This document shows, piece by piece, positions 4,483 to 35,617 of a DNA stretch of 64,000 nucleotides. Location: the UHGV virus genome UHGV-0382128; one strand, 5' to 3'. Origin of the DNA: a virus. Both the position numbers and the translations under genes were made by a program. Numbering within the stretch: position 1 is the first letter of the stretch; each line of letters starts with the position of its first letter. Under the pieces are notes generated by a model, which worked only from the letters and a program-made list of their open reading frames with translations, was not told the DNA's origin and made no database searches.

Positions 4483-6540
4483 ATGAGTTTTATTCCACGA
4501 AACGGCGCGCCATTGAATAACAAGCAAGGGTGGCAGGATAACTCTGTCCCTGAGCTTGTCCGGACCCCCACGGGTGATCCGATTCATAAGCCGCTGATCT
4601 TCACCTTTGCATCACGCGGGGTAGACGACGAGGCGTTCCCGTTATCCGGGGATAATGCATTGTCTCTGCTTGGTCGTGATTTGTTCGACCTGCGTGGCGA
4701 TTACGCGACGTTCAACACACCCTTCCAGGCGATGTTTAATGGCAATGGTAACGAGTGTATGTATCAGCGTCTGGTGCCGGACGATGCGAAAGTCGCAGCT
4801 GTCCGTCTGGTGGCTGACGTCCTCGAAACCAAAGTTCCTTCATACGAGCGTGTGAACGGCATTATCCAGTATGAAACTAACGGTAAGCCGAAGAAGAAAG
4901 AAGACGTTGATGGCTTGAAAGTGGTTTTCCGTCTGCAAGTTGTCGAAGATGTAAGCACCCTGAAAAAAGGTGTGGTTACTGAAGGGACAATGACCGACGA
5001 AACCACGAGCGCGAAATCAAAGCTCTATCCGATCTTCGACATTAAAGGCCCGTACGCGGGTGCTGATGTCAACGGTTTCGGTTTTAAACTGGTTCCGCTG
5101 AACGAAAAATCCAGCCCATCTATCGCGTCTGCTTATCAGACCAACGTAGGTGGACGTATGTACGCACTGCAATGGTTTGAAACCTTAGCAGGGGTTACAT
5201 CGCCGGTAATTTGGAAGACCCTTAAAGGTCTTAGCAGCATCAATGTTAGCTTCAAGCCCGATGCATACTATCAGCCGATGGCTACTCAACTGGACTTCGA
5301 AGTCGTTGTTCCAGATGCCTATCGTCAGACGATGCCAGACATCGGTGGTCTGCCGGACTACGGTCCTTTCGAAGAGTTCTACATTTACCGTGAAAACCTG
5401 GAAACTGTTCTGAAACTGGCACAGTCTAAAATTCAGAATGCGAAACCAGCGATCACCGATCCGTATATGGTCGATATCTTCGGCGGCCTGGATTTAACCG
5501 GTCAAATGTACGATGGTCTGCAAGTTAGCCCATCTGATGAAGTGGGTAAAGTTGTCTTTTCTGCTTCTAACATTCACTATCTGCAGGGCGGTAGTGACGG
5601 GACGATGGGTAATGATGCTTACGACAAACTCGTGCGTCGTGAGATGAGTCAGTTCCCGGACGGCGGTAAAGTCCGTTACGATAACGAACTGAAATATTCG
5701 TTAGGCTGCTTCTGGGACTCCGGTTTTAGCATGGATACCAAGAAAGTGCTGACCAATTTCATTGGTCGTTCTCGTAACACGTTCTTGACACTCTGTACTC
5801 ACGTTTATAACGAAGGTCGTAATGACTTACAAACCGAAGAGAACGTGAAGACAGCGCTGATCGAAATGATTACGTCCGTGCCTGAATCGTCCTATTACGG
5901 TACCCCAGCGTGCCGTGGGATGATTACTGGCCAGTCTGCGTTCATCCGTAACTCGAGCTACAAGAAACCGGTTCCGATGTGTTATAGCATTGCGAACTTC
6001 TTCTCGAAGTATCTCGGTTCCGGTGAAGGACGTGCAAAACCGGCGTATCGTTTCAGCCGTGGTGAAGAGACGATCATCGAAGATCTGTACGATCTGAGTA
6101 TGCCGTGGAAAGGTAACGAGATTTACGCGTCCGACTGGGATGTGTCCCTGGTTACCGCACGTTCCCGCGACTACTATCGTTTGTTCATCCCAGCTATCCA
6201 GTCCATCTATAGCGAAGAACGTTCAGTGCTGAACAATGCACTGTTTAACTTTATCCTGACTTACGTTTATCGTGTCAGCGATCAGGTTTGGGCAGATATG
6301 TCCGGTGAAAGCCGTATGACGGACGACGAACGCGCGAAAATGATTGAAAACAAAATCACCGAGCGTTTGGAAGGTCGCCTGGATAATATTGCCGACATTA
6401 CCCCGAGTGCGTATATGACAGCGGACGATAAAGCCAACGGCTACTCTATCACGCTGGACATTAAAGCTGAAGGCGGTGTACTGTTGTCGCAGTTCAACAC
6501 GACGATCAAAGTTTATCGTCGCAACAGTACGGAGGTCTAA
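4483..6540 (+). CDS. Highly expressed structural protein (685 aa); candidate tail sheath
   Basis: Strong bias to E. coli high-expression codons (ctg, cgt, ggt, ccg, aaa, gaa), SD ggagacg upstream, followed 3 nt later by a ~290-aa ORF and a strong terminator. Size and sheath-then-tube order fit a contractile tail; identity not verifiable by eye. Confidence 0.4.
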   Translation: MSFIPRNGAPLNNKQGWQDNSVPELVRTPTGDPIHKPLIFTFASRGVDDEAFPLSGDNALSLLGRDLFDLRGDYATFNTPFQAMFNGNGNECMYQRLVPDDAKVAAVRLVADVLETKVPSYERVNGIIQYETNGKPKKKEDVDGLKVVFRLQVVEDVSTLKKGVVTEGTMTDETTSAKSKLYPIFDIKGPYAGADVNGFGFKLVPLNEKSSPSIASAYQTNVGGRMYALQWFETLAGVTSPVIWKTLKGLSSINVSFKPDAYYQPMATQLDFEVVVPDAYRQTMPDIGGLPDYGPFEEFYIYRENLETVLKLAQSKIQNAKPAITDPYMVDIFGGLDLTGQMYDGLQVSPSDEVGKVVFSASNIHYLQGGSDGTMGNDAYDKLVRREMSQFPDGGKVRYDNELKYSLGCFWDSGFSMDTKKVLTNFIGRSRNTFLTLCTHVYNEGRNDLQTEENVKTALIEMITSVPESSYYGTPACRGMITGQSAFIRNSSYKKPVPMCYSIANFFSKYLGSGEGRAKPAYRFSRGEETIIEDLYDLSMPWKGNEIYASDWDVSLVTARSRDYYRLFIPAIQSIYSEERSVLNNALFNFILTYVYRVSDQVWADMSGESRMTDDERAKMIENKITERLEGRLDNIADITPSAYMTADDKANGYSITLDIKAEGGVLLSQFNTTIKVYRRNSTEV

Positions 6541-15339: not shown

Positions 15340-18300
15340 TTATTTAAGTGTCGCGGGTAAATCAGGCACAGCTTCCCCATCGAGTATACGCCCGATGAGA
15401 ATCCCGGCTTGTTCACCTACAGCATTCGCGGTACCGATACGTTGGATTGAACCTACGATACGCGCATCGACAGAATCACGACCGAACAACACGTCCAGGT
15501 CATCACCATCCTCTGTTTTGTTGTCGCCGTACATGACTTCTTGTACGGTGGTTTTTAGCTGGTTAGCAATAACCATCTTATCCGCAGCGGCCATCTCAAC
15601 GTCGTGTGTAATAAAGAATCGAACACAAAGTGAGTTAAAGGCTAATGGTACACCTTCGACACGGTAGTCGCCGTTTACACTGCCTGAAACCGGATCACCT
15701 CGCCCGACTGCCAAAGCGGCTTTACGACGAATTCTGTCGTATTTACGCACCAGTTCAGCAAGGCTTGGTGTCATGTCTTCGGTTTCACCGTGATACACCA
15801 CTTCGATCTTATCCACGATACCACGTACCCCTGCACGAGGTGCGTACGAACTTAAACTTTGCAACGTTGCGGCTGCTTCCTGACTAAAGGCACTCATATC
15901 GCCTGTCAAGTCGTCAGTAAACGTGCATAGGATTGTATCGACGTCTACGTGGTCGCCCTCATTCACGATTTCCAAAAGCATCTGGTTGCTGTTAATCGTC
16001 ACTTCTTTCAGCTTTGTTACCTGCCCCACCATTTTCTTCGCGAACCGTTCAGAAATTGCGTTGGAGTCTTCGATAACTTCTTCAGCTTCTAATAAAGCAA
16101 CGGTAGCCAGCACCCCGTTTTTCCAGGAAACCTGAGTAGGATCGTAAATATCAGGTTCAAAGTGTTGCTCGTTGTACGTAATCACTGCTCCGGCCGGGAG
16201 CTTGTCACCGGCTTTCCAGCGTGTTACCAAGGTGTGCGGATAGAAGGTACCTTCGTGGGGGCCGAACCAGCGCCCTAGAGGAAAAGCTTCTTTACTTCCA
16301 TCTTCGTACGTAATTTCAATGTGGTCTTTCGACAGACCAGTAATCTTACCTGCTTTATCAATAACGCGTGCATGTTTCACCGAAGTACGGTGTGCGACGA
16401 ATTTCTCCTGTTCAGTACGATACGGGGTTGTGGTTGCCCCAATACAACTGGTGGCAGAACCTAACTGAATCCCAACGAAGTTTTGACGCTTTGCGTCGTC
16501 CATTAACGTATCTGGTACTAACCCGTCAATAAACGAAAGGGTGTCGCTTGGTTTCGGGGTTTTCTCTTCACGTTTAAATGTAGTACCGTCAACGGTGTCA
16601 AAACGTGGGTTATTGGTGACGAAAGCAGTAATACCTACGTCGCCGTTATCTACGGTGTTACCCGAGACTATCCCGATATCGCTGGGTTGGAACTCACGTG
16701 TGTGGTAGACCATCGTTTTACGATTACGACCACCTGTACCCCCCATCGTAATAACGTCTTTTTCTTTAATTGACTGGATAGGGTTAGCACCTGGTGCCAA
16801 AAGTACCGACGGGTCGGAGTTAATTGCACCCCAAACCATGTCTTGCGTCAGTTCGAACTTACGGTTACTGCCCGGTGCGTTATTGTAGTTACGCATCGCT
16901 CTGACCATCGCGGTATAGATGTGGTAGGCAATCCTCTGATTTCCTAAGAACATCATTTCATCGCCGTTAATCTCTGGTAAAGAGTGGTCAGTTTGTAACA
17001 GTTCGTTAGAACGTTCCAACAAGCCAATAAAGGTTTCCGGTTCACCCATTTTCCTGAGGATACGTGCGTGCATGTCGTCAACAAACGCGGACCGCATCTG
17101 TTTCAGCTCATTGATGTACCGTGGTGTTAGGCCATCTGCATCACGTAATAAGTTCAGGTAAATGTCTTCGCGGTCTGCTTCTGATTCAGTATAAGCAACC
17201 AGGTGTTTGAGATAGCGATCCAAACCATGCAGAATCATCTTCTGCTGATCGTTATCGCATGTAACTAAAAGTTTACAGTCTTGTAGTCGAATAATACTGT
17301 CGTAGGCATTCTTATCAACACGCTGCCCTGCGGGAACCAACTCGTACTGGATACCGAAATGTTTCAACATTCCCTGGAGTCCAAGGTAGAACGAGAAGAT
17401 AAAACCAAGCGACAAAGATTTACCCATCAAAGACAGCTCGGTCATTTCGCGAGGCACTTTCTGGTTATTAAAGCCCAGTACCTCTGCGATAGTTCCCACC
17501 GGCTCAACTTTGTTTCCGTTCACACCGTAAAGCATGGATTTGTCATCCATTGCCAGTATTGTTTCACTGCGCGGACGTTTCGCCACTGGCAAAAGTTTGG
17601 CAGCATCGGCGTCTCTGAGTTGTTCGTCGTTAAAGAAGTTAACGGCTTCTTTGTAGTCGAAGTTCCACATATAGCCATTCGCATTAAAGCTGGCAATACG
17701 ACGTGCAATCTCCGTATACTGACGAGGCAGATGTTGCGTAGGATCGAACACATTTGCTAAACGTGCATCGGTGACTTCGGTGTTTGTCGGGTCAACAGCG
17801 CGTGTGATAATCGCGTTGGTTAACCAACGACCGTAGTCGTTTGCGACCTTATCACTACGACGGACAAAGTTTTTACCGTATGCGGTAGTCAGTGCGACAG
17901 TATCCGGCGCAACCTTACGAATCGGTAAGTCCACACGTTGCCGACGCATGGTGTATTCGACACCATTAGCTACCCAAGTACCGTCCTCGGTCAAGCCTGG
18001 GATAGAGAAGCGAACGGTTGTTGGCTCACCACCGACTGGTTGAACACGTAAAGTGTGGTGCTCGATAGTCCCTGTAACAGAAACTTCTTTTTCCACCGTG
18101 TGATTGTGAATCGCCAGACCCAAACGTTGTGAGCTGGCGACCGCCGCCAGCACGTCCTTGGTCATCATGGTCTGGTTGTACTGTTTCATCATCTGGTCAG
18201 TGACGTTCTCGGCCCACCCTTCGTCGGTAACAAGTCGCTGAACCTTTTTCGGCTCGGCTTTAACGACGACATCTTTCTCGTGAACAGTAAGTGCTTCCCC

Positions 18301-19506
18301 GTAGGTTTCTTTCGGGTTATACGGGTTAGGCAGCTGAACGAAACGTTTAGACGATTCTGACAGGAACTGATATGCTTTAGAACTTAAGCGGCCCGCTTCA
18401 GCTAAGCGTTGTGCTTCTTGTTTAATAATTTCGTCATGCGGAATGACTTTCTCGACAACAATTGTCGTCGGTTTGACGTCTTCCTTCGGTTCTTCAATAA
18501 CAACGTCTTCTTTTTCATCGAAGGTGTTATCGGATTCGACCACAGCGTCATTAACAACGTCGTCATCATCGACAACATCAACGGTTTCTTCTTCGACGTC
18601 TTTAAGGAAAACACGTTCGTCGCCTTCAGGCGTTAGGAATTCCGCTTCGTACGCATTAGACGGCGCTTGTGTCATTACACGCACTAGCGTACGGTAGAAC
18701 ATCCTGGCCATTTGATCGTCACTTAAACGACCGCCGGAGGACTTACGCATTTTCTCTACAACACCCATGTTCATGGACGTAAAGCCCGTGTTGTGGGTGA
18801 AGATAAAGTTCATTCGTGACAGCTGAGTTAAATCCATTCCCGCGAATAAGGAATCGGATTGTTTTCCATAAGCCCAAGCAAACAACTCCAATAACCACAG
18901 CAAGTTGAAGTCCTGGAACTTCTCAATCTTGCTTTTAACACGGTCGTTATAGGTTGTTTGAAACTTCTGGAACGAGGGTAATGTCGAACCCAGTTCAATA
19001 ACGAAATAGTTCTGACGCATGTATTCTTGCGTGTCGTATTTGAACTGGTTAATCATCAACAGTTGGATGTTACGCAATCTATCGTACCAGGCTAACTGGG
19101 TATCAGGATAGTAGTAGTGCGATAGCATCGGCGTGTAGTTCTCGATCAGGAGAACTTTTAAGTCTTTGCGAACCAGTTCGTCTGAGGTAAGACGACGCAT
19201 CGGGCGGTTTGCACGGTGGTAGGCAAAGATAGCACGTTCTTGCCCCTGAACAGGTTTGTTGCGCGGATGTCCGCTAATACCGTCTTCCGGTAATTTAAAG
19301 TGGTGACGAACCTGTGCAGGTTTTTCTAACGGTTGAATAATCTCGAGTGTTGCAGGCGGCGCTAACACCACCTGGTCGAGATCAATGACATGGAGTACAG
19401 AACCTCGCGGTATCTGTAGCTTCTCGAGCGGGATAATCCTCGGATTACCAAACTCGTCGGTTTTACGCACCGAGAAGCGTTGGTTAAACTGTTTAATGAG
19501 CAGCAT
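15340..19506 (-). CDS. Multisubunit RNA polymerase beta-like subunit, N-terminal fragment (1388 aa)
   Basis: Near residues ~940-1045: GGTGGRNRKTMVYHTREFQPSDIGIVSGNTVDNGDVGI and TTPYR, resembling the bacterial beta region [36 protein letters not shown]...ETPYR. Protein ends before the beta C-terminal GDKxxxRHGNKG region, and lies 10 nt downstream of the beta-prime-like gene. Confidence 0.55.
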   Translation of the reverse strand: MLLIKQFNQRFSVRKTDEFGNPRIIPLEKLQIPRGSVLHVIDLDQVVLAPPATLEIIQPLEKPAQVRHHFKLPEDGISGHPRNKPVQGQERAIFAYHRANRPMRRLTSDELVRKDLKVLLIENYTPMLSHYYYPDTQLAWYDRLRNIQLLMINQFKYDTQEYMRQNYFVIELGSTLPSFQKFQTTYNDRVKSKIEKFQDFNLLWLLELFAWAYGKQSDSLFAGMDLTQLSRMNFIFTHNTGFTSMNMGVVEKMRKSSGGRLSDDQMARMFYRTLVRVMTQAPSNAYEAEFLTPEGDERVFLKDVEEETVDVVDDDDVVNDAVVESDNTFDEKEDVVIEEPKEDVKPTTIVVEKVIPHDEIIKQEAQRLAEAGRLSSKAYQFLSESSKRFVQLPNPYNPKETYGEALTVHEKDVVVKAEPKKVQRLVTDEGWAENVTDQMMKQYNQTMMTKDVLAAVASSQRLGLAIHNHTVEKEVSVTGTIEHHTLRVQPVGGEPTTVRFSIPGLTEDGTWVANGVEYTMRRQRVDLPIRKVAPDTVALTTAYGKNFVRRSDKVANDYGRWLTNAIITRAVDPTNTEVTDARLANVFDPTQHLPRQYTEIARRIASFNANGYMWNFDYKEAVNFFNDEQLRDADAAKLLPVAKRPRSETILAMDDKSMLYGVNGNKVEPVGTIAEVLGFNNQKVPREMTELSLMGKSLSLGFIFSFYLGLQGMLKHFGIQYELVPAGQRVDKNAYDSIIRLQDCKLLVTCDNDQQKMILHGLDRYLKHLVAYTESEADREDIYLNLLRDADGLTPRYINELKQMRSAFVDDMHARILRKMGEPETFIGLLERSNELLQTDHSLPEINGDEMMFLGNQRIAYHIYTAMVRAMRNYNNAPGSNRKFELTQDMVWGAINSDPSVLLAPGANPIQSIKEKDVITMGGTGGRNRKTMVYHTREFQPSDIGIVSGNTVDNGDVGITAFVTNNPRFDTVDGTTFKREEKTPKPSDTLSFIDGLVPDTLMDDAKRQNFVGIQLGSATSCIGATTTPYRTEQEKFVAHRTSVKHARVIDKAGKITGLSKDHIEITYEDGSKEAFPLGRWFGPHEGTFYPHTLVTRWKAGDKLPAGAVITYNEQHFEPDIYDPTQVSWKNGVLATVALLEAEEVIEDSNAISERFAKKMVGQVTKLKEVTINSNQMLLEIVNEGDHVDVDTILCTFTDDLTGDMSAFSQEAAATLQSLSSYAPRAGVRGIVDKIEVVYHGETEDMTPSLAELVRKYDRIRRKAALAVGRGDPVSGSVNGDYRVEGVPLAFNSLCVRFFITHDVEMAAADKMVIANQLKTTVQEVMYGDNKTEDGDDLDVLFGRDSVDARIVGSIQRIGTANAVGEQAGILIGRILDGEAVPDLPATLK

Positions 19507-19515
19507 TGCTTAGCC

Positions 19516-21135
19516 TTATGGGTTCTTTAATAACGCTTGCGTTGCACGTTTAATCACGTTGTTGATAGGATTGATTTTAAAGTTCCCATCAGAATCGAAC
19601 CAGTAGTTTTTCGAGTGTATCCAGTTCCGGTTTTCCTCGAGCGCTTCCTGGGACATAGGCGCGTTAAACGACCCGGTATCGCCATCGTAGTCACCCCCTA
19701 ACCCACCTAGGCGTGAAGGGTGTGGTGCCATAGACTCAACGAAGGTAGGAACCGACCGGTCAGGGTAGCTGATAGCCCCTCGGGGTTTTTCAGTTTCCCA
19801 GTCATCTTCCAGTTCTTTTAAATATAAAGATGACGTGGTGGTCTCCAATCTTATGGTCGATGAATACGTCGAGCCTCGGCCTGTAACGGGATAACGTGTA
19901 ACGAAACCGAAATAATCGTTCCAAAGTTCGTAGCCCGACAAATAAAGCAATTCGACGAGTGTCATACCGTGAACGAATTTTCGGTCAAACGTTTTAGGAA
20001 GTTCTTCAATATCGTAGAACACCTTAAAATGTTTGGTGTCTTGGTAAACCAACGCAACGTAGTGGGTGTCGTCCAACATAATCGGTTGATGGCGAAGCTC
20101 GCGAGCTTCCATTCGGTTGATTAAGGATTCAATCCCATCGTCGGTGGTAAAGGTGTCGTATACACGACCACCTACTTCCAAGAATTCACGTTTAAGGGTT
20201 TTGGTGTTTACGCCGTAAAGGTTGCCATCGCCAGCACGGATGTTACCGAGGTAACGTTCGCGTATCTGGTACTGCGCAACGGGGAGTAATGCTTTTAAAC
20301 CCTGGTATAAACCAATTTTGGTGTCGGTGGGACGAATAGCGTCTTCACGACCCATGCATTTAGACCCCGTCGAGAACGAGGACAGTACGTTACGTGTCCC
20401 GTTCATTAACTTACGAGACGTCACTTTACGACGTTGGAAACCCCCTTTACCGTCCTGGATGTTAAAGAAATACATCCAGATATCATTGAAGGTTTGTTGA
20501 AGTTTCCAGCGTACGGGGTTAGTTAACTCGACACGGGTTGCCCGGTCAGGGATCGCCCTGGCGAGAGATACCAACCGACGATACATCCCGCCGATTTCTT
20601 CTTCTTGCTCTCTACCATCTTGTCGAATTACTAAATCGCGTAAACCCGCGGGTAACACGAGAACGTATCGACTAAGACTAACGGGACGGAATTTCAAAAA
20701 GAAATCCACGGTTTCGTCACGTTGTAGAGACTCGTTACGCTTAGGTTTTAAATCGTTATAGTGACTGAGGAAGAAGTTAAAACCGGTATCTGCGCCTGGG
20801 TCTCCCGGCAAGGCCGGTTCGAAATCTTTTTCTTTTTCGCTCCAGGTTGCGTAGCGTTTTCCAGAACAAATTTCTTCGTAGAGTTGTTTGAGTTGGAATA
20901 ACGCCAAACACACTGTCGGCGAAATGATATCGAGCTTAATATCGATATAAGAGAATGTAGAGTCTCGCGCTTCACTACCCGTGAGTCCAAAAATCTCTGT
21001 AGAGTAAAGACCTTCGGGGTGAAAGTTTTTTGTTAACCCCTGGAAAGTATCCGTGGTCGTGACGGGTCGTAATCGCGACACAAGAGACTTGTTTACATTG
21101 AGCAGATAAAAGTCAACCCAATTAAGTTTATTCAC
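19516..21135 (-). CDS. Multisubunit RNA polymerase beta-prime-like subunit, N-terminal fragment (539 aa)
   Basis: GKGGFQRRKVTSRKLMNGTRNV resembles beta-prime [22 protein letters not shown]; C-terminal GGDYDGDTGS matches the NADFDGD Mg-binding motif; ORF ends ~50 aa after it. Confidence 0.65.
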   Translation of the reverse strand: MNKLNWVDFYLLNVNKSLVSRLRPVTTTDTFQGLTKNFHPEGLYSTEIFGLTGSEARDSTFSYIDIKLDIISPTVCLALFQLKQLYEEICSGKRYATWSEKEKDFEPALPGDPGADTGFNFFLSHYNDLKPKRNESLQRDETVDFFLKFRPVSLSRYVLVLPAGLRDLVIRQDGREQEEEIGGMYRRLVSLARAIPDRATRVELTNPVRWKLQQTFNDIWMYFFNIQDGKGGFQRRKVTSRKLMNGTRNVLSSFSTGSKCMGREDAIRPTDTKIGLYQGLKALLPVAQYQIRERYLGNIRAGDGNLYGVNTKTLKREFLEVGGRVYDTFTTDDGIESLINRMEARELRHQPIMLDDTHYVALVYQDTKHFKVFYDIEELPKTFDRKFVHGMTLVELLYLSGYELWNDYFGFVTRYPVTGRGSTYSSTIRLETTTSSLYLKELEDDWETEKPRGAISYPDRSVPTFVESMAPHPSRLGGLGGDYDGDTGSFNAPMSQEALEENRNWIHSKNYWFDSDGNFKINPINNVIKRATQALLKNP

Positions 21136-33109: not shown

Positions 33110-33406
33110 TTACTTAAAATCACGTTTGGCCTTGCTAATGATTTGAGATATTCTGCTTGGCGTCACTCCGTGTATTTCGGCCAATTTCTTGTTACTTAGG
33201 CCACCCAATTTACCAACAAGAATATTCAATACACGTAAGTCTTTTAACGTTGCCGAAATCTTCTCTAAGATTTCGATATCAGCTTGATCAAACTTACCTT
33301 TAGTCTGTAATGCTATCCCAGCACGCTCAGTAACAGTTTTTAGCTCAGCTAATCGACTAATGCCGAAAGAAGTTAACTCCACGTACGATTTCTCATTAAT
33401 CATCAT
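33110..33406 (-). CDS. Small helix-turn-helix protein resembling sigma-70 region 4 (98 aa); candidate transcription factor
   Basis: C-terminal LSNKKLAEIHGVTPSRISQIISKAKRDF resembles the region-4 HTH consensus (cf. ...LEEVG..FGVTRERIRQIE.KAL). Confidence 0.4.
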   Translation of the reverse strand: MMINEKSYVELTSFGISRLAELKTVTERAGIALQTKGKFDQADIEILEKISATLKDLRVLNILVGKLGGLSNKKLAEIHGVTPSRISQIISKAKRDFK

Positions 33407-33413
33407 GTACCCC

Positions 33414-34448
33414 TTAGACAGCTATGGGAGCTTTAATTGTGTCGTGTGATTGATACCCAACCAATTCGAAGTCTTCGTATTTGTAATCGAAGATGGAATC
33501 AGGTTTACGTTTGATAACCAGTTTAGGTAGCGGGTAAGGTTCGCGAGTAAGTTGTAGTTTTGCCTGCTCCAGATGGTTAGAATACAGATGAACGTCTACA
33601 CCACTATAAACCAACTCGTCTGGAACCATGTTCAACTGCTGTGCAATCATGTGAGTTAACAACGCGTACGAAGCGACGTTAAATGGCGCGCCGAGTAGGT
33701 AATCGTTGCTCCGCATCATGTAAAAACATGAAAGCTTCCGACGTGGAATGTCCTCACGATCTAAAATTTCATGAAGTCGCTCTTCATCATCAATATCTTC
33801 GTGATTAATAAGCGGTGCGCTCGCAAATTTTTCCGGTTCGTTTACTTCGTACCAATCCAGTCGTTCAAGCAACGTCATTTCCGTTGTGTAGAATTGGAAA
33901 TAGTTGTGGCATGGGTTAAGTGCCATATCGTCCAGGTCACCTACATTCCAGGCACTAACAATAATACGACGGGAGTCAGGGTCTTCACGAAGTTGCTGGA
34001 TAACTTTACTGATCTGGTCATGTGCTTTTTCATAGACCAAATACGTCGTACCGTCTTCCTTCATATTCCCAATATACTTGTAACCCCGCTGCATTAGTTG
34101 TTGTGTACGTCTTACGTCATGACACTCCACAACTTTACAGTCGCGCCATTCACGCCATTGTTTACCATAAACTGGTCCTAAGTTCCCCTCTTCATCACTC
34201 CATTCGTTCCAAATTTTTACCCCGTTCTCTTGCAGGTACTTCACGTTAGTGTCACCATTTAAGAACCACAGCAGTTCATGAATGATACTTTTCAGGTGAA
34301 CCTTTTTCGTAGTAACTAATGGGAAACCTTCTTTTAGGTCGAAACGTAGTTGGCGACCAAATACAGAAAGTGTCCCTACGCCTGTACGGTCTTTCTTGAC
34401 AACACCGTTATCTAGAATGTCTTGCATTAACGCTAAATACTGTTTCAT
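33414..34448 (-). CDS. thyA: Thymidylate synthase (344 aa) with two insertions
   Basis: Near-identical blocks to E. coli ThyA (MKQYL.LMQ..L..G....[53 protein letters not shown]). Two in-frame insertions of roughly 33 and 46 aa. Confidence 0.9.
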
Positions 34449-34762
34449 TTGTTATTCTCCATACGTTTCGTTAAAATGTCTAAATTACGTTGCGCTTGCT
34501 CAGGACTAAAAATAATGTTTTCCTGGCTATACGTTACATGGAAATGTTTTTTGTTAACAATCTCAACCTTAAGGCCACGAACTTCGAATTGCCGTTTAGC
34601 CTCTTCAACCTTTTTTGGTGAGATTCTAAGAAGACCTGGAAATAGTTCGTCTGCAGGAACGTAGTATTTGATTTCCTTAGTTTCGGGAATTAATTCGATC
34701 CTATCTAAACTGACGCTTATGATTTCGTCAATCTTTTTCTTTATATTGTCGTTCACAGTCAT
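34445..34762 (-). CDS. Hypothetical protein (105 aa)
   Basis: ORF overlapping thyA by 4 nt. Confidence 0.45.
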
Positions 34763-35070
34763 CAGATTTTGTCCTTTTCGAGTTCAGTTAAAATTTCAAA
34801 CAGGTCTGCGTTGGACTGCAGTACGATTTCACTGCCTTCTGCTACAACAGTAATTAAAGGCTTCTTACCACGTAGCAAGAACTCCCAACGCATTGTTCTT
34901 ACGTGGCTGTCGAGTAACTGTTTTAATTTGTGGTTAACTTCAACTTCCAATTTGCCCAGTAACTGTGGTGTAATGCTTTCACCTGAGTTTTTGTTATAAA
35001 GTGTACGCACTAAAGAACGTAAAGAATAGCCAATGCACTGCGAAATTGCCCAACCCGAATAGTTTTCCAT
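34762..35070 (-). CDS. Hypothetical protein (102 aa)
   Basis: ORF only. Confidence 0.45.
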   Translation of the reverse strand: MENYSGWAISQCIGYSLRSLVRTLYNKNSGESITPQLLGKLEVEVNHKLKQLLDSHVRTMRWEFLLRGKKPLITVVAEGSEIVLQSNADLFEILTELEKDKI

Positions 35071-35071
35071 G

Positions 35072-35617
35072 TTAATCCTTCAAAATGTCTTTAAGTTTTA
35101 GTTTTGTATAGAACGGAGAACTACTTAGTTCTTCTGTCCAACTTATACGTCCGTTCTGTAGAACCCGGTCGAAGATTAGGCCGTTCATCTTTACAATTCT
35201 GGCCAATTGATAAAAGAGTGTCGCGAGATGTAGACGACGCTCCATTTGTGCGCGAGCGGTACAACTTCGTACCGCTTTGATAGCAAGTACCGCTTCTGGC
35301 ATCAACGTAACCGCGATTGACTCAGGATGTTCGTTTTTCCATTTCTTAATGGCTAGTAGTCGGTGTAGTGATTTTTCAAGGGGACGTAAATCCCCGTTAT
35401 TCATCACGTAAACTAGAGCAGCAATATCCCACAAGGCGTTACCCACCGCTTTAGCAACAAACAACCCGTCGTGTGATGTCGTGGATTCACAGACTTTGCC
35501 AATACTTCCATAAACACGTGCAGTCCATGCGTCTGTCTGTTCGCCGGGTTTTATACCCGCGTTATCCAGAAAGTGTTTAAACGCATTAACGTGATCAGTT
35601 AACTGTATTTGTTTCAT
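35072..35617 (-). CDS. Hypothetical protein (181 aa)
   Basis: ORF only. Confidence 0.45.
   Translation of the reverse strand: MKQIQLTDHVNAFKHFLDNAGIKPGEQTDAWTARVYGSIGKVCESTTSHDGLFVAKAVGNALWDIAALVYVMNNGDLRPLEKSLHRLLAIKKWKNEHPESIAVTLMPEAVLAIKAVRSCTARAQMERRLHLATLFYQLARIVKMNGLIFDRVLQNGRISWTEELSSSPFYTKLKLKDILKD

What the first reader, a model, noticed from the sequence alone, without database searches (positions are those of the whole stretch)
33414..34448. Thymidylate synthase with two in-frame insertions
The core is close to E. coli ThyA, but there are two insertions: ~33 aa after the conserved GKQWR.W block and ~46 aa after PCHxxFQFY, the latter highly acidic ([17 protein letters not shown]). 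They are in frame and too short for introns or inteins. An insertion at the first site is, as I recall it, known in some bacterial and phage ThyA proteins. The second insertion is next to the catalytic Cys and may provide a phage-specific interaction surface or change substrate handling.
Basis: partly seen in the sequence, partly recalled or inferred. Interest (0 to 1): 0.4.

Follow-up and report, generated by a model that had tools for sequence, protein, structure and literature searches.

The report
Jumbo-phage thymidylate synthase with family-typical insertions
This is an intact thymidylate synthase gene of a ΦKZ-like jumbo phage, and its two extra segments are inherited, selectively maintained add-ons: one also occurs in Burkholderia-type bacterial enzymes, and the other was found here only in phage enzymes and has not been characterised.

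Summary
A 344-aa ThyA-type thymidylate synthase (TS) lies on the minus strand at 33414-34448. It aligns to E. coli ThyA in three blocks, separated by a 40-aa segment (net +34) and a 48-aa segment (net +46). All catalytic and substrate-binding residues checked are present, and three curated TS equivalog cut-offs are passed.

Neither insertion is peculiar to this gene:
- **Insert 1** aligns without gaps, at the same length, to the solved chromosomal ThyA of Burkholderia thailandensis (PDB 3V8H; NCBIfam NF010393).
- **Insert 2** is shared with ΦKZ gp235, the SPN3US/Goslar/Erwinia jumbo phages, 47 of 78 sampled IMG/VR viral TS genes and most of the top 150 metagenomic TS clusters. It was absent from the 80 nearest bacterial ThyA genes, from the curated bacterial TS models that matched here, and from every solved structure.

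Both inserts are predicted to be ordered (model pLDDT 95.8). Both are under purifying selection as strong as the core (dN/dS about 0.07 versus 0.06).

Insert 2 is not close to the same-subunit catalytic Cys in space. It caps the far end of the dimer-interface β-hairpin.

Verdict: an ordinary dTMP-forming TS of an uncatalogued nucleus-forming-type jumbo phage, carrying lineage-typical decorations. The function of insert 2 is unknown. Interest is low to moderate.

The parts
33414..34448 (-). Thymidylate synthase (ThyA-type) CDS, 344 aa plus stop
   Evidence: ORF. Pfam PF00303 full length, E 4e-110. NCBIfam equivalogs NF002499 (414 bits, cut-off 405), NF002497 (398, cut-off 327) and TIGR03284 (341, cut-off 108). 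PDB phmmer E 7e-110 to E. coli ThyA.
34143..34448 (-). Core block 1 (residues 1-102 = Ec 1-102). Contains R21, E58, W80, W83 and Y94.
34023..34142 (-). Insert 1 (residues 103-142, 40 aa, net +34). Predicted strand-helix-β-hairpin in or next to the variable small domain.
   Evidence: Boundaries. Secondary structure E101-108, H112-120, E124-131, E134-143 at pLDDT 97-98. Gapless homologue in PDB 3V8H and in NF010393. Homologue in ΦKZ gp235. dN/dS 0.068.
33882..34022 (-). Core block 2 (residues 143-189 = Ec 109-155). Contains R160/R161 (Ec R126/R127) and the PCH motif.
33909..33911 (-). Codon of catalytic Cys180 (Ec C146), within PCH at 33906-33914
   Evidence: Translation check. Invariant column in alignments A1 and A2.
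33738..33881 (-). Insert 2 (residues 190-237, 48 aa, net +46, net charge -10). Lengthens the interface β-hairpin and caps it with three short helices.
   Evidence: Boundaries. H193-203, H205-210, H222-231; only the 211-220 block has lower confidence (pLDDT about 69). Shared signature FQFYt.E.t..ER...lD...vP.r.L in distant carriers and in ΦKZ gp235. No PDB counterpart. dN/dS 0.069.
33417..33737 (-). Core block 3 (residues 238-344 = Ec 158-264). Contains R246, S247, D249, N257, H287, Y289 and the C-terminal KAPIAV. Carries the lineage-fixed changes Ec Q165->M245 and C168->N248. A recombination breakpoint lies at about codons 235-245.
34457..34460 (-). GGAG Shine-Dalgarno-like motif 8 nt upstream of the ATG. 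The TS ATG overlaps the stop of the upstream 105-aa ORF (ATGA, 34445-34448).
   Evidence: Sequence read; ORFs.

Best explanation
The gene encodes a catalytically conventional, folate-dependent thymidylate synthase of a ΦKZ/SPN3US-type jumbo phage that infects enterobacteria.

Chemistry (established TS mechanism, not tested here): an obligate homodimer makes dTMP from dUMP and 5,10-methylene-tetrahydrofolate. Cys180 attacks C6 of dUMP. R21, R246 and R160'/R161' from the partner subunit hold the phosphate. N257 selects uracil.

Localisation (inferred from relatives): the enzyme most likely works in the host cytoplasm, outside the phage nucleus.

The two insertions are old, heritable, folded surface modules of this TS lineage. 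They are not mobile elements and not recent accretions.
- Insert 1 enlarges a loop in or beside the variable small domain, as in Burkholderia-type bacterial ThyA.
- Insert 2 lengthens the β-hairpin of the dimer-interface sheet and caps its far end with a small helical module.

Status of the steps:
- Shown: TS family membership, conservation of the catalytic residues, homology and distribution of the inserts, predicted order, and purifying selection.
- Inferred: the inserts leave the chemistry unchanged. They probably act as structural or interaction surfaces, for example by stabilising or modulating the dimer, or by docking other phage nucleotide-metabolism proteins.
For: TS identity:
- Pfam, NCBIfam and PDB matches.
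- Invariant R21, E58, W80, W83, Y94, R160/R161, C180, H181, R246, S247, D249, N257, H287 and Y289.

Phage identity:
- Split multisubunit RNAP β genes, tail sheath, UvsX and SbcC in the window.
- Synteny with SPN3US, TS followed by MazG.
- Nearest catalogued relatives are phiEaH2/Stratton/Asesino.

The inserts are ancestral:
- All 10 SPN3US/Goslar/Erwinia relatives have both.
- ΦKZ gp235 has recognisable versions of both.
- The best viral fold match is the 201φ2-1 TS at TMq 0.92, against about 0.72-0.74 for the shorter phage TSs (278-294 aa).

Insert 1 in bacteria:
- An 80-aa gapless alignment spans the whole insert.
- NF010393 contains it.
- 3V8H is the chromosomal, putatively essential thyA gene BTH_I1680 (PMC3561365).

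Insert 2 distribution:
- 47 of 78 IMG/VR viral TS genes carry it.
- Most of the top 150 clusters at 50% identity carry it.
- Five of five sampled carriers lie in phage-type neighbourhoods.
- None of the 80 nearest bacterial ThyA genes has it.
- No PDB sequence has it.
- All the longer curated bacterial TS models break at residues 189-193.

Order and selection:
- pLDDT 95.8, with both inserts above 90 except about residues 211-220.
- No indels in 120 variants.
- dN/dS is 0.061 in the core, 0.068 in insert 1 and 0.069 in insert 2.

Cytoplasmic localisation: TS-GFP is excluded from the phage nucleus in ΦPA3-type phages (PMC9067925).
Against: - No activity data exist for any TS of this type.
- By symmetry, the tip of the hairpin may approach the partner subunit's active site. 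Phe149 faces itself across the interface (PMC6514825). An effect on substrate binding or half-of-the-sites behaviour therefore cannot be excluded.
- The lineage has an unusual, fixed Ec Q165->M change next to the dUMP-selecting Asn.
- Selection on the inserts as strong as on the core suggests more than a passive decoration.
- Absence of insert 2 from bacteria rests on limited sampling. The genome scan used exact 8-mers of this protein.
Confidence: 0.8

Rival explanations
1. Insert 2, alone or with insert 1, is a functional phage-specific module. It might be a docking surface that assembles TS with other phage dNTP-synthesis enzymes, or positions it near the phage nucleus. Alternatively it might be a regulatory cap on the interface hairpin that alters dimer stability or half-of-the-sites reactivity through the partner subunit's active site.
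For: - dN/dS in the inserts equals that of the catalytic core, and 120 variants show no indels.
- Within insert 2, an Arg (R196) is at least 90% conserved and a Pro (P235) is invariant across distant carriers.
- The insert sits on the Cys146-Tyr153 interface strand, which is implicated in inter-subunit communication (PMC6514825).
- The distribution is phage-restricted in my sample.
- One intragenic recombinant shares both inserts with the window but carries a different C-terminal core block.
Against: - No partner protein has been identified, and no conserved neighbouring gene is specific to carriers.
- Insert sequence is otherwise poorly conserved (37-49% identity against 75% in the core).
- Strong acidity is lineage-specific (median net charge -2 among 91 carriers).
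- The inserts occur independently of each other.
Confidence: 0.25
2. The protein is not a dTMP-forming TS but a TS-fold pyrimidine-modifying enzyme (dUMP or dCMP hydroxymethylase, or dCMP methylase) that supplies a modified base for the phage DNA.
For: - Phages do use TS homologues for base modification (PMC7824862).
- The lineage has a fixed Ec Q165->M substitution beside the pyrimidine-selecting Asn.
- A MazG-type pyrophosphatase lies nearby.
Against: - N257 (Ec N177) is Asn, not the Asp of dCMP-specific enzymes.
- The core is 65-78% identical to bona fide bacterial ThyA across this phage group.
- The TS-type C-terminus KAPIAV is intact.
- Three TS equivalog cut-offs are passed.
- Close relatives (SPN3US and others) keep Q at Ec 165.
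Confidence: 0.04
3. The insertions are remnants or products of selfish elements (mini-inteins, translated intron remnants, homing-endonuclease debris), or neutral loop expansions without function.
For: - TS genes of related phages are targets of mobile elements. Erwinia phages Joad and RisingSun have TS split by a GIY-YIG endonuclease gene.
- Some metagenomic TSs carry an extra 260-270 aa at site 1.
- The loops used are known variable sites of TS.
Against: - The segments are too short and lack intein or endonuclease motifs.
- They are predicted as ordered parts of the fold.
- Insert 1 is part of the deposited bacterial ThyA chain 3V8H, which aligns structurally over 289 residues, about 40 more than TSs without the inserts.
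- GC content is like the rest of the gene.
- dN/dS of 0.07 argues against neutrality.
- The inserts are conserved from ΦKZ to SPN3US-type phages.
Confidence: 0.03

Closest known systems
E. coli ThyA (for example PDB 2TSC, 1AOB) and other 264-aa bacterial ThyA
   Same: Same fold and the same catalytic and binding residues. The core is 65% identical (74-78% for sister phages). The match extends end to end, including the C-terminal residues.
   Different: These enzymes lack both insertions. The window protein also has Ec Q165->M, C168->N and G204->V.
Burkholderia thailandensis ThyA, PDB 3V8H (BTH_I1680); NCBIfam NF010393 / PRK13821 family
   Different: It has no insert 2. The core is much more divergent (38% identity). 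It is a chromosomal housekeeping gene of a bacterium (PMC3561365). The window protein scores far below the NF010393 cut-off (230 bits, cut-off 576).
TS of nucleus-forming jumbo phages: ΦKZ gp235 (488 aa), 201φ2-1 TS (457 aa), SPN3US gp037, Goslar gp141, phiEaH2 gp150
   Same: Both insertions are at the same two sites, with shared motifs. Fold match to the 201φ2-1 TS is TMq 0.92. The SPN3US/Goslar/Erwinia proteins are about the same length (339-353 aa) and 59-65% identical.
   Different: ΦKZ and 201φ2-1 additionally carry a large insertion at the small-domain site and a longer insert 2. Their cores are only about 51% (ΦKZ) identical. The window gene has no nucleotide-level match in the phage collection.
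Lactobacillus casei, Enterococcus faecalis and Staphylococcus aureus TS, with the classical 50-aa small-domain insertion
   Same: Precedent for large, ordered insertions in TS surface loops that do not change the chemistry (PMC6514825).
   Different: That insertion lies at a different site (before Ec G88-Y94, about Ec 81-87). It is absent from the window protein.
T4 dCMP hydroxymethylase and CMP hydroxymethylase MilA (TS-fold base-modifying enzymes)
   Different: Only 20-23% identity. The window protein keeps the TS-specific Asn and C-terminus, and passes the TS equivalog thresholds.

Membership tests
Thymidylate synthase ThyA (PF00303 / TIGR03284; EC 2.1.1.45) | Full-length match to the family profile above the curated cut-off | tested here: met
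   PF00303 367.5 bits (cut-off 24.3), covering 2-344. TIGR03284 341 bits (cut-off 108), NF002499 414 (405), NF002497 398 (327).
Thymidylate synthase ThyA (PF00303 / TIGR03284; EC 2.1.1.45) | Catalytic nucleophile Cys in the P-C-H motif, with the general-base network (E58, H147, Y94) | tested here: met
   C180 and H181 in PCH, plus E58 and Y94, are invariant in A1 and A2. Codons verified.
Thymidylate synthase ThyA (PF00303 / TIGR03284; EC 2.1.1.45) | Four-arginine dUMP phosphate clamp (Ec R21, R166, R126', R127') and S167 | tested here: met
   R21, R246, R160, R161 and S247 are present.
Thymidylate synthase ThyA (PF00303 / TIGR03284; EC 2.1.1.45) | Asn (Ec N177) selecting uracil, rather than the Asp of dCMP-specific homologues | tested here: met
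   N257 in PFN. The supporting Gln (Ec Q165) is Met in this lineage.
Thymidylate synthase ThyA (PF00303 / TIGR03284; EC 2.1.1.45) | Folate-site residues (W80, W83, D169) and the conserved C-terminal tail that closes the active site | tested here: met
   W80, W83 and D249 are present. The C-terminus ...IKAPIAV aligns to Ec ...IKAPVAI.
Thymidylate synthase ThyA (PF00303 / TIGR03284; EC 2.1.1.45) | TS fold | tested here: met
Thymidylate synthase ThyA (PF00303 / TIGR03284; EC 2.1.1.45) | Catalyses dUMP + CH2-THF -> dTMP + DHF as a homodimer | not testable with these tools
   Needs an enzyme assay or thyA complementation. A dimer model could not be built or inspected.
Burkholderia-type ThyA (NCBIfam NF010393 / PRK13821) | Whole-protein score above the equivalog cut-off (576 bits) | tested here: not met
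   230 bits. Only the insert-1 architecture is shared (residues 1-189 align in one stretch to profile positions 1-201). The window protein shares a module with this family but is not a member.
dCMP/dUMP hydroxymethylase or dCMP methylase (TS-fold modifying enzymes) | Asp at the Ec N177 position (dCMP enzymes), divergent C-terminus, and closer similarity to T4 gp42 or MilA than to ThyA | tested here: not met
Intein or intron-derived insertion | Intein splicing blocks or an endonuclease domain; or stop codons or a frame change within the insert | tested here: not met
   No Pfam domain in either insert. Continuous reading frame. Inserts are ordered in the model. Insert 1 is part of the deposited 3V8H chain, which aligns structurally over 289 residues.
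ΦKZ/SPN3US-type (nucleus-forming, Chimalliviridae-type) jumbo-phage TS | Both insertions at Ec 101-109 and Ec 156-157 with shared motifs, encoded in a ΦKZ-like genome | tested here: met
   Alignment with 10 relatives and with ΦKZ gp235. Fold match to the 201φ2-1 TS at TMq 0.92. Split RNAP β subunits and other ΦKZ-type genes in the window. Chimallin itself was not looked for in the window.

The most novel reading that the evidence does not exclude
Insert 2 is a virus-restricted, structurally unsolved helical cap of about 35-70 aa on the TS dimer-interface hairpin. It is conserved across a very large clade of phage TSs and is as strongly constrained as the catalytic core. It could be a genuine functional module. 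For instance, it might tune inter-subunit communication at the partner active site, or dock TS into a phage nucleotide-synthesis assembly. That would make these enzymes a distinct, previously undescribed architectural class of viral thymidylate synthase.
Probability: 0.25. Interest if true: 0.5.

Novelty: new member of a known kind. Interest (0 to 1): 0.25.

Why it matters
For this window the result is mainly a clarification. The gene is a normal phage thyA, and its 'odd' segments are inherited family traits, one of which is already visible in a bacterial crystal structure.

The wider point is modest but real. A large share of viral TS genes carry an ordered, strongly selected insertion on the dimer-interface hairpin. 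I could not find it in cellular enzymes, in solved structures or in the literature I searched. TS is one of the best-studied enzymes and a drug target. A virus-specific structural module on the segment implicated in inter-subunit communication would be a cheap and tractable object for structural and enzymological work.

Tried and rejected
1. Megablast of the gene against phages found no match. The phage is not catalogued at nucleotide level.
2. The AlphaFold-DB fold library was unavailable.
3. I looked for insert 2 in PDB by sequence and by an insert-2 profile. Only the flanks matched, and 3V8H did not rank. I therefore rejected the idea that 3V8H's extra aligned residues were insert 2. They are insert 1.
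4. A profile search of the 5.8-billion-protein collection with the insert-2 region returned only short fragments of ordinary TS. It was uninformative and cost one search.
5. Cluster-member names for 10 representatives were essentially empty.
7. tblastn for DHFR in the window found no hit. This is uninformative, because the window covers only 64 kb of a genome of about 222 kb.
8. Mosaic origin of the core. The core-only NJ tree groups the SPN3US-type phage TSs with 264-aa bacterial ThyA (73% bootstrap) and never with ΦKZ (0%), although the inserts share motifs with ΦKZ. I could not separate rate heterogeneity or long-branch effects from recombination with host-like thyA, so I make no claim.
9. 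Core positions co-varying with the presence of insert 2: only junction residues (Ec 155 A->P, 157 G->R) and Ec L194->M.
10. Model coordinates are not exposed, so distances from the inserts to the active sites could not be measured.

Full report
**1. The observation**

The interval 33414-34448 holds a single long ORF on the minus strand (ATG 34446-34448, stop 33414-33416, 344 aa). The plus-strand reading is full of stops. The ATG overlaps the stop codon of the upstream 105-aa ORF (ATGA) and is preceded by GGAG 8 nt upstream.

Pfam PF00303 covers residues 2-344 (E 4e-110). phmmer against all PDB sequences aligns the protein to E. coli ThyA in exactly three blocks (1-102 = Ec 1-102; 143-189 = Ec 109-155; 238-344 = Ec 158-264). 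This gives:
- Insert 1: residues 103-142, 40 aa in place of 6.
- Insert 2: residues 190-237, 48 aa in place of 2.

Window coordinates were verified by translation: insert 1 at 34023-34142, insert 2 at 33738-33881, and the Cys180 codon at 33909-33911.

**2. It is a bona fide TS**

Every residue that defines the chemistry of ThyA is present: R21, E58, W80, W83, Y94, R160/R161 (Ec R126/R127), C180-H181 (Ec C146-H147), R246-S247 (Ec R166-S167), D249 (Ec D169), N257 (Ec N177), H287 and Y289. The C-terminal ...KAPIAV is also intact.

Three curated NCBIfam TS equivalogs are passed (NF002499, NF002497, TIGR03284).

One oddity remains. The Gln that orients the uracil-selecting Asn (Ec Q165) is Met here, and Ec C168 is Asn. 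This `CF[YF][ML]MRSND` motif is fixed in all 120 close variants. Goslar and EC001 have Ala at the Q165 position, while SPN3US keeps Gln.

**3. Genomic setting**

The window encodes split multisubunit RNA-polymerase β subunits, a tail sheath, a giant tail-fibre or transglycosylase protein, UvsX-like recombinase and SbcC. These are the signature of ΦKZ-type jumbo phages.

TS lies about 1.4 kb upstream of a MazG pyrophosphatase gene, as in SPN3US.

The TS gene has no megablast match in 50,697 phage records. A 24-kb stretch matches phiEaH2, Stratton and Asesino at only about 75% identity over a third of its length.

More than 120 near-identical TS proteins (94-100% identity) occur on contigs of up to 222-226 kb. 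Their sources are metagenomes and sequencing runs, plus NCBI records labelled Shigella flexneri, Salmonella enterica and E. coli. IMG/VR holds an 89%-identical relative.

The relatives SPN3US, Goslar, Asesino and others belong to the nucleus-forming phage group. [quoted passage not shown] The cytoplasmic location of this TS is an inference from those relatives.

**4. What the insertions are**

*(a) Both are inherited.* All ten SPN3US/Goslar/Erwinia/Proteus jumbo-phage TSs examined carry both insertions, with lengths differing by only a few residues. ΦKZ gp235 (488 aa) has recognisable versions of both (`...NLEDTRVIPKYEWFDYEKRGFDF...RRIDQI` and `FIQFWTRELTVDERV...LDQHGAPKRAISCQLYQRS`), plus a large third insertion at the classical small-domain site. 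In the viral structure library the best match is the 201φ2-1 TS, with TMq 0.92. The shorter phage TSs (278-294 aa) reach only about 0.72-0.74.

*(c) Insert 2 looks virus-restricted and is structurally unsolved.* Several lines agree:
- Insert-only tblastn finds it only within TS genes of 27 jumbo-phage records, at 37-44% identity.
- HMMER against 1.84 billion cluster representatives shows that most of the top 150 TS clusters have +30 to +70 aa between the catalytic Cys and Ec R166. These carriers share the signature `FQFYt.E.t..ER ... lD...vP.r.L(S/D)C`.
- Five of five sampled carriers lie in phage-type neighbourhoods.
- Of the 80 best IMG/VR viral TS loci, 47 of 78 classifiable ones carry a site-2 insertion. 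It occurs in every combination with the other two sites, so the modules are independent.
- The 80 nearest bacterial ThyA genes in GTDB representative genomes are all plain 264-aa proteins. This scan used exact 8-mers of the query, so it sampled only the nearest relatives.
- All the longer curated bacterial TS models break at residues 189-193.
- No PDB sequence aligns across the insert, whether queried by sequence or by profile.
- Neither insert matches any Pfam domain.

*(d) Both are ordered and selected.*
- The model gives insert 1 as strand 101-108, helix 112-120 and β-hairpin 124-131/134-143.
- It gives insert 2 as an extension of the two hairpin strands (181-190 and 237-249) capped by helices 193-203, 205-210 and 222-231. 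Only about residues 211-220 have reduced confidence.
- Among 120 close variants there are no indels, and variable sites are only mildly enriched in the inserts (39% against 27%).
- Nei-Gojobori dN/dS was computed from the window gene and four diverged variants retrieved as DNA. It is 0.061 for the core, 0.068 for insert 1 and 0.069 for insert 2, at pS of 0.18-0.38.
- At greater distances the inserts diverge faster than the core (37-49% against 75% identity).
- The extreme acidity of insert 2 (net -10) is the tail of the distribution, whose median is -2 among 91 carriers. Strong acidity is therefore a lineage trait, not a family hallmark.

**5. Position relative to the active site**

Insert 2 begins 10 residues after Cys180, but at the opposite end of a 10-residue β-strand. 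At about 3.3 Å per residue, that places it roughly 30 Å from the same-subunit nucleophile. 'Next to the catalytic Cys' therefore holds in sequence only.

This strand (Ec 146-153) lies in the five-stranded sheet that forms the dimer interface. It is implicated in inter-subunit communication, with Phe149 facing itself across the two-fold axis (PMC6514825). By symmetry, the far tip of one subunit's hairpin should point towards the partner's active-site side, where R126'/R127' operate.

This is an inference. I could not check it, because model coordinates are not exposed and a dimer could not be modelled.

Insert 1 sits in the loop between the helices that end at Ec W101 and start at Ec D110. That loop is in or adjoining the variable small domain.

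**6. Most likely mechanism, and rivals**

*Best explanation (confidence about 0.8).* This is a conventional dTMP-forming TS acting in the cytoplasm of infected cells. It is decorated by two ancestral, folded surface modules that do not change the chemistry.

*Main rival, which refines rather than contradicts this (about 0.25).* Insert 2 has a specific phage-related role, either modulating the dimer or partner active site, or serving as a docking surface. This is suggested by selection as strong as on the core, by the conserved R196 and P235, and by its position on the interface strand.

*Other rivals.* A base-modifying enzyme (about 0.04) and mobile-element debris or neutral expansion (about 0.03) are poorly supported.

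**7. Evolutionary side-observations**

Core-only identities put the SPN3US-type phage TSs as close to E. coli ThyA (74-78%) as E. coli is to other γ-proteobacteria. ΦKZ's core is about 52% identical to everything. In an NJ tree the ten enterobacterial jumbo-phage TSs group with 264-aa bacterial ThyA in 73% of bootstraps, and never with ΦKZ, even though the inserts share motifs with ΦKZ. Rate heterogeneity and recombination with host-like thyA are both possible, and I leave this open.

Recombination inside the gene does occur. The window gene and variant L100 are virtually identical (a single difference) through about codon 225. They are then 25-30% different at nucleotide level, in 60-nt windows, through most of the remaining gene. 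The breakpoint lies at about codons 235-245, just after insert 2.

**8. Novelty and verdict**

The gene is a new member, from an uncatalogued phage, of a known kind. Homologues with the same architecture have been in databases since ΦKZ was sequenced and are annotated as thymidylate synthase. Insert 1 has a structural precedent. Insert 2 appears undescribed in the literature I could search, and no solved structure contains it.

Interest is low to moderate (0.25). The finding is largely explained. It leaves one tractable open question: what the widespread viral insert 2 does.

Noticed in passing
whole window (for example 15340-21135 RNAP β subunits; 4483-6540 tail sheath): The window belongs to a ΦKZ/SPN3US-type jumbo phage that is absent at nucleotide level from the August 2025 phage collection. 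Its nearest relatives there, phiEaH2, Stratton and Asesino, match at about 75% identity over a third of 24 kb. Near-identical TS proteins nevertheless occur on contigs of 222-226 kb, from metagenomes and sequencing runs plus NCBI records labelled Shigella flexneri, Salmonella enterica and E. coli. This may be a common, unrecognised jumbo phage in enterobacterial isolate data (carrier state or contamination).
   Followed up: partly
window ~33714-33746 (codons ~235-245 of TS); loci L099-L102: There is a sharp intragenic recombination breakpoint just after insert 2. The window gene and variant L100 are virtually identical through about codon 225, then differ by 25-30% at nucleotide level in most 60-nt windows of the remaining gene. 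Synonymous divergence is strongly heterogeneous along the gene in other pairs too.
   Followed up: partly
window 33714-33716 and 33705-33707 (M245, N248); also V284: The lineage-fixed substitutions Ec Q165->Met and C168->Asn (motif CF[YF][ML]MRSND in all 120 variants), plus Ec G204->Val. Q165 normally orients the uracil-selecting Asn. Goslar and EC001 have Ala there, while SPN3US keeps Gln. The effect on pyrimidine specificity is untested.
   Followed up: partly
window 34445-35617 (minus strand): Upstream of TS, two consecutive ORFs (35072-35617, 181 aa; 34762-35070, 102 aa) match the N- and C-terminal parts of one PHROG family (phrog_10269, 299-position profile). The nearby MazG protein also weakly matches this family. 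They look like a split version of a single gene, possibly the SPN3US gp038 homologue (not compared directly). A further 105-aa ORF without matches (34445-34762) overlaps the TS start (ATGA).
   Followed up: no
window 33110-33406 (minus strand): A 98-aa ORF lies immediately downstream of TS. It has a weak, sub-threshold match to region 4 of sigma-70/ECF sigma factors (TIGR02937, E 1.7e-4, residues 41-95). It may be a small HTH DNA-binding protein.
   Followed up: no
H146/H166 (Erwinia phages Joad, RisingSun); representatives P0142, P0143, P0161, P0193, P0212, P0230, P0262: TS genes of related jumbo phages are targets of mobile elements. In Joad and RisingSun, TS is annotated in two pieces around a GIY-YIG homing-endonuclease gene. 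Several metagenomic TS proteins of 530-590 aa seem to carry an extra 260-270 aa between Y94 and R126, at the insert-1 site. This rests on regex spacing only and could reflect inteins, fused endonucleases or mis-anchoring.
   Followed up: no
(representatives and IMG/VR loci L103-L182): TS uses three insertion 'hot loops': Ec ~81-87, ~101-109 and ~156-157. In viral contigs they are occupied in nearly every combination (patterns 000, +0+, +++, 0++, 0+0, 00+). This indicates modular, independent gain or loss of decorations in viral TSs.
   Followed up: partly
core-only tree: The cores of the SPN3US-type TSs group with 264-aa bacterial ThyA (73% bootstrap) and never with ΦKZ, although their inserts share motifs with ΦKZ gp235. 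This points to either strong rate heterogeneity or homogenisation of the core with host-like thyA.
   Followed up: partly
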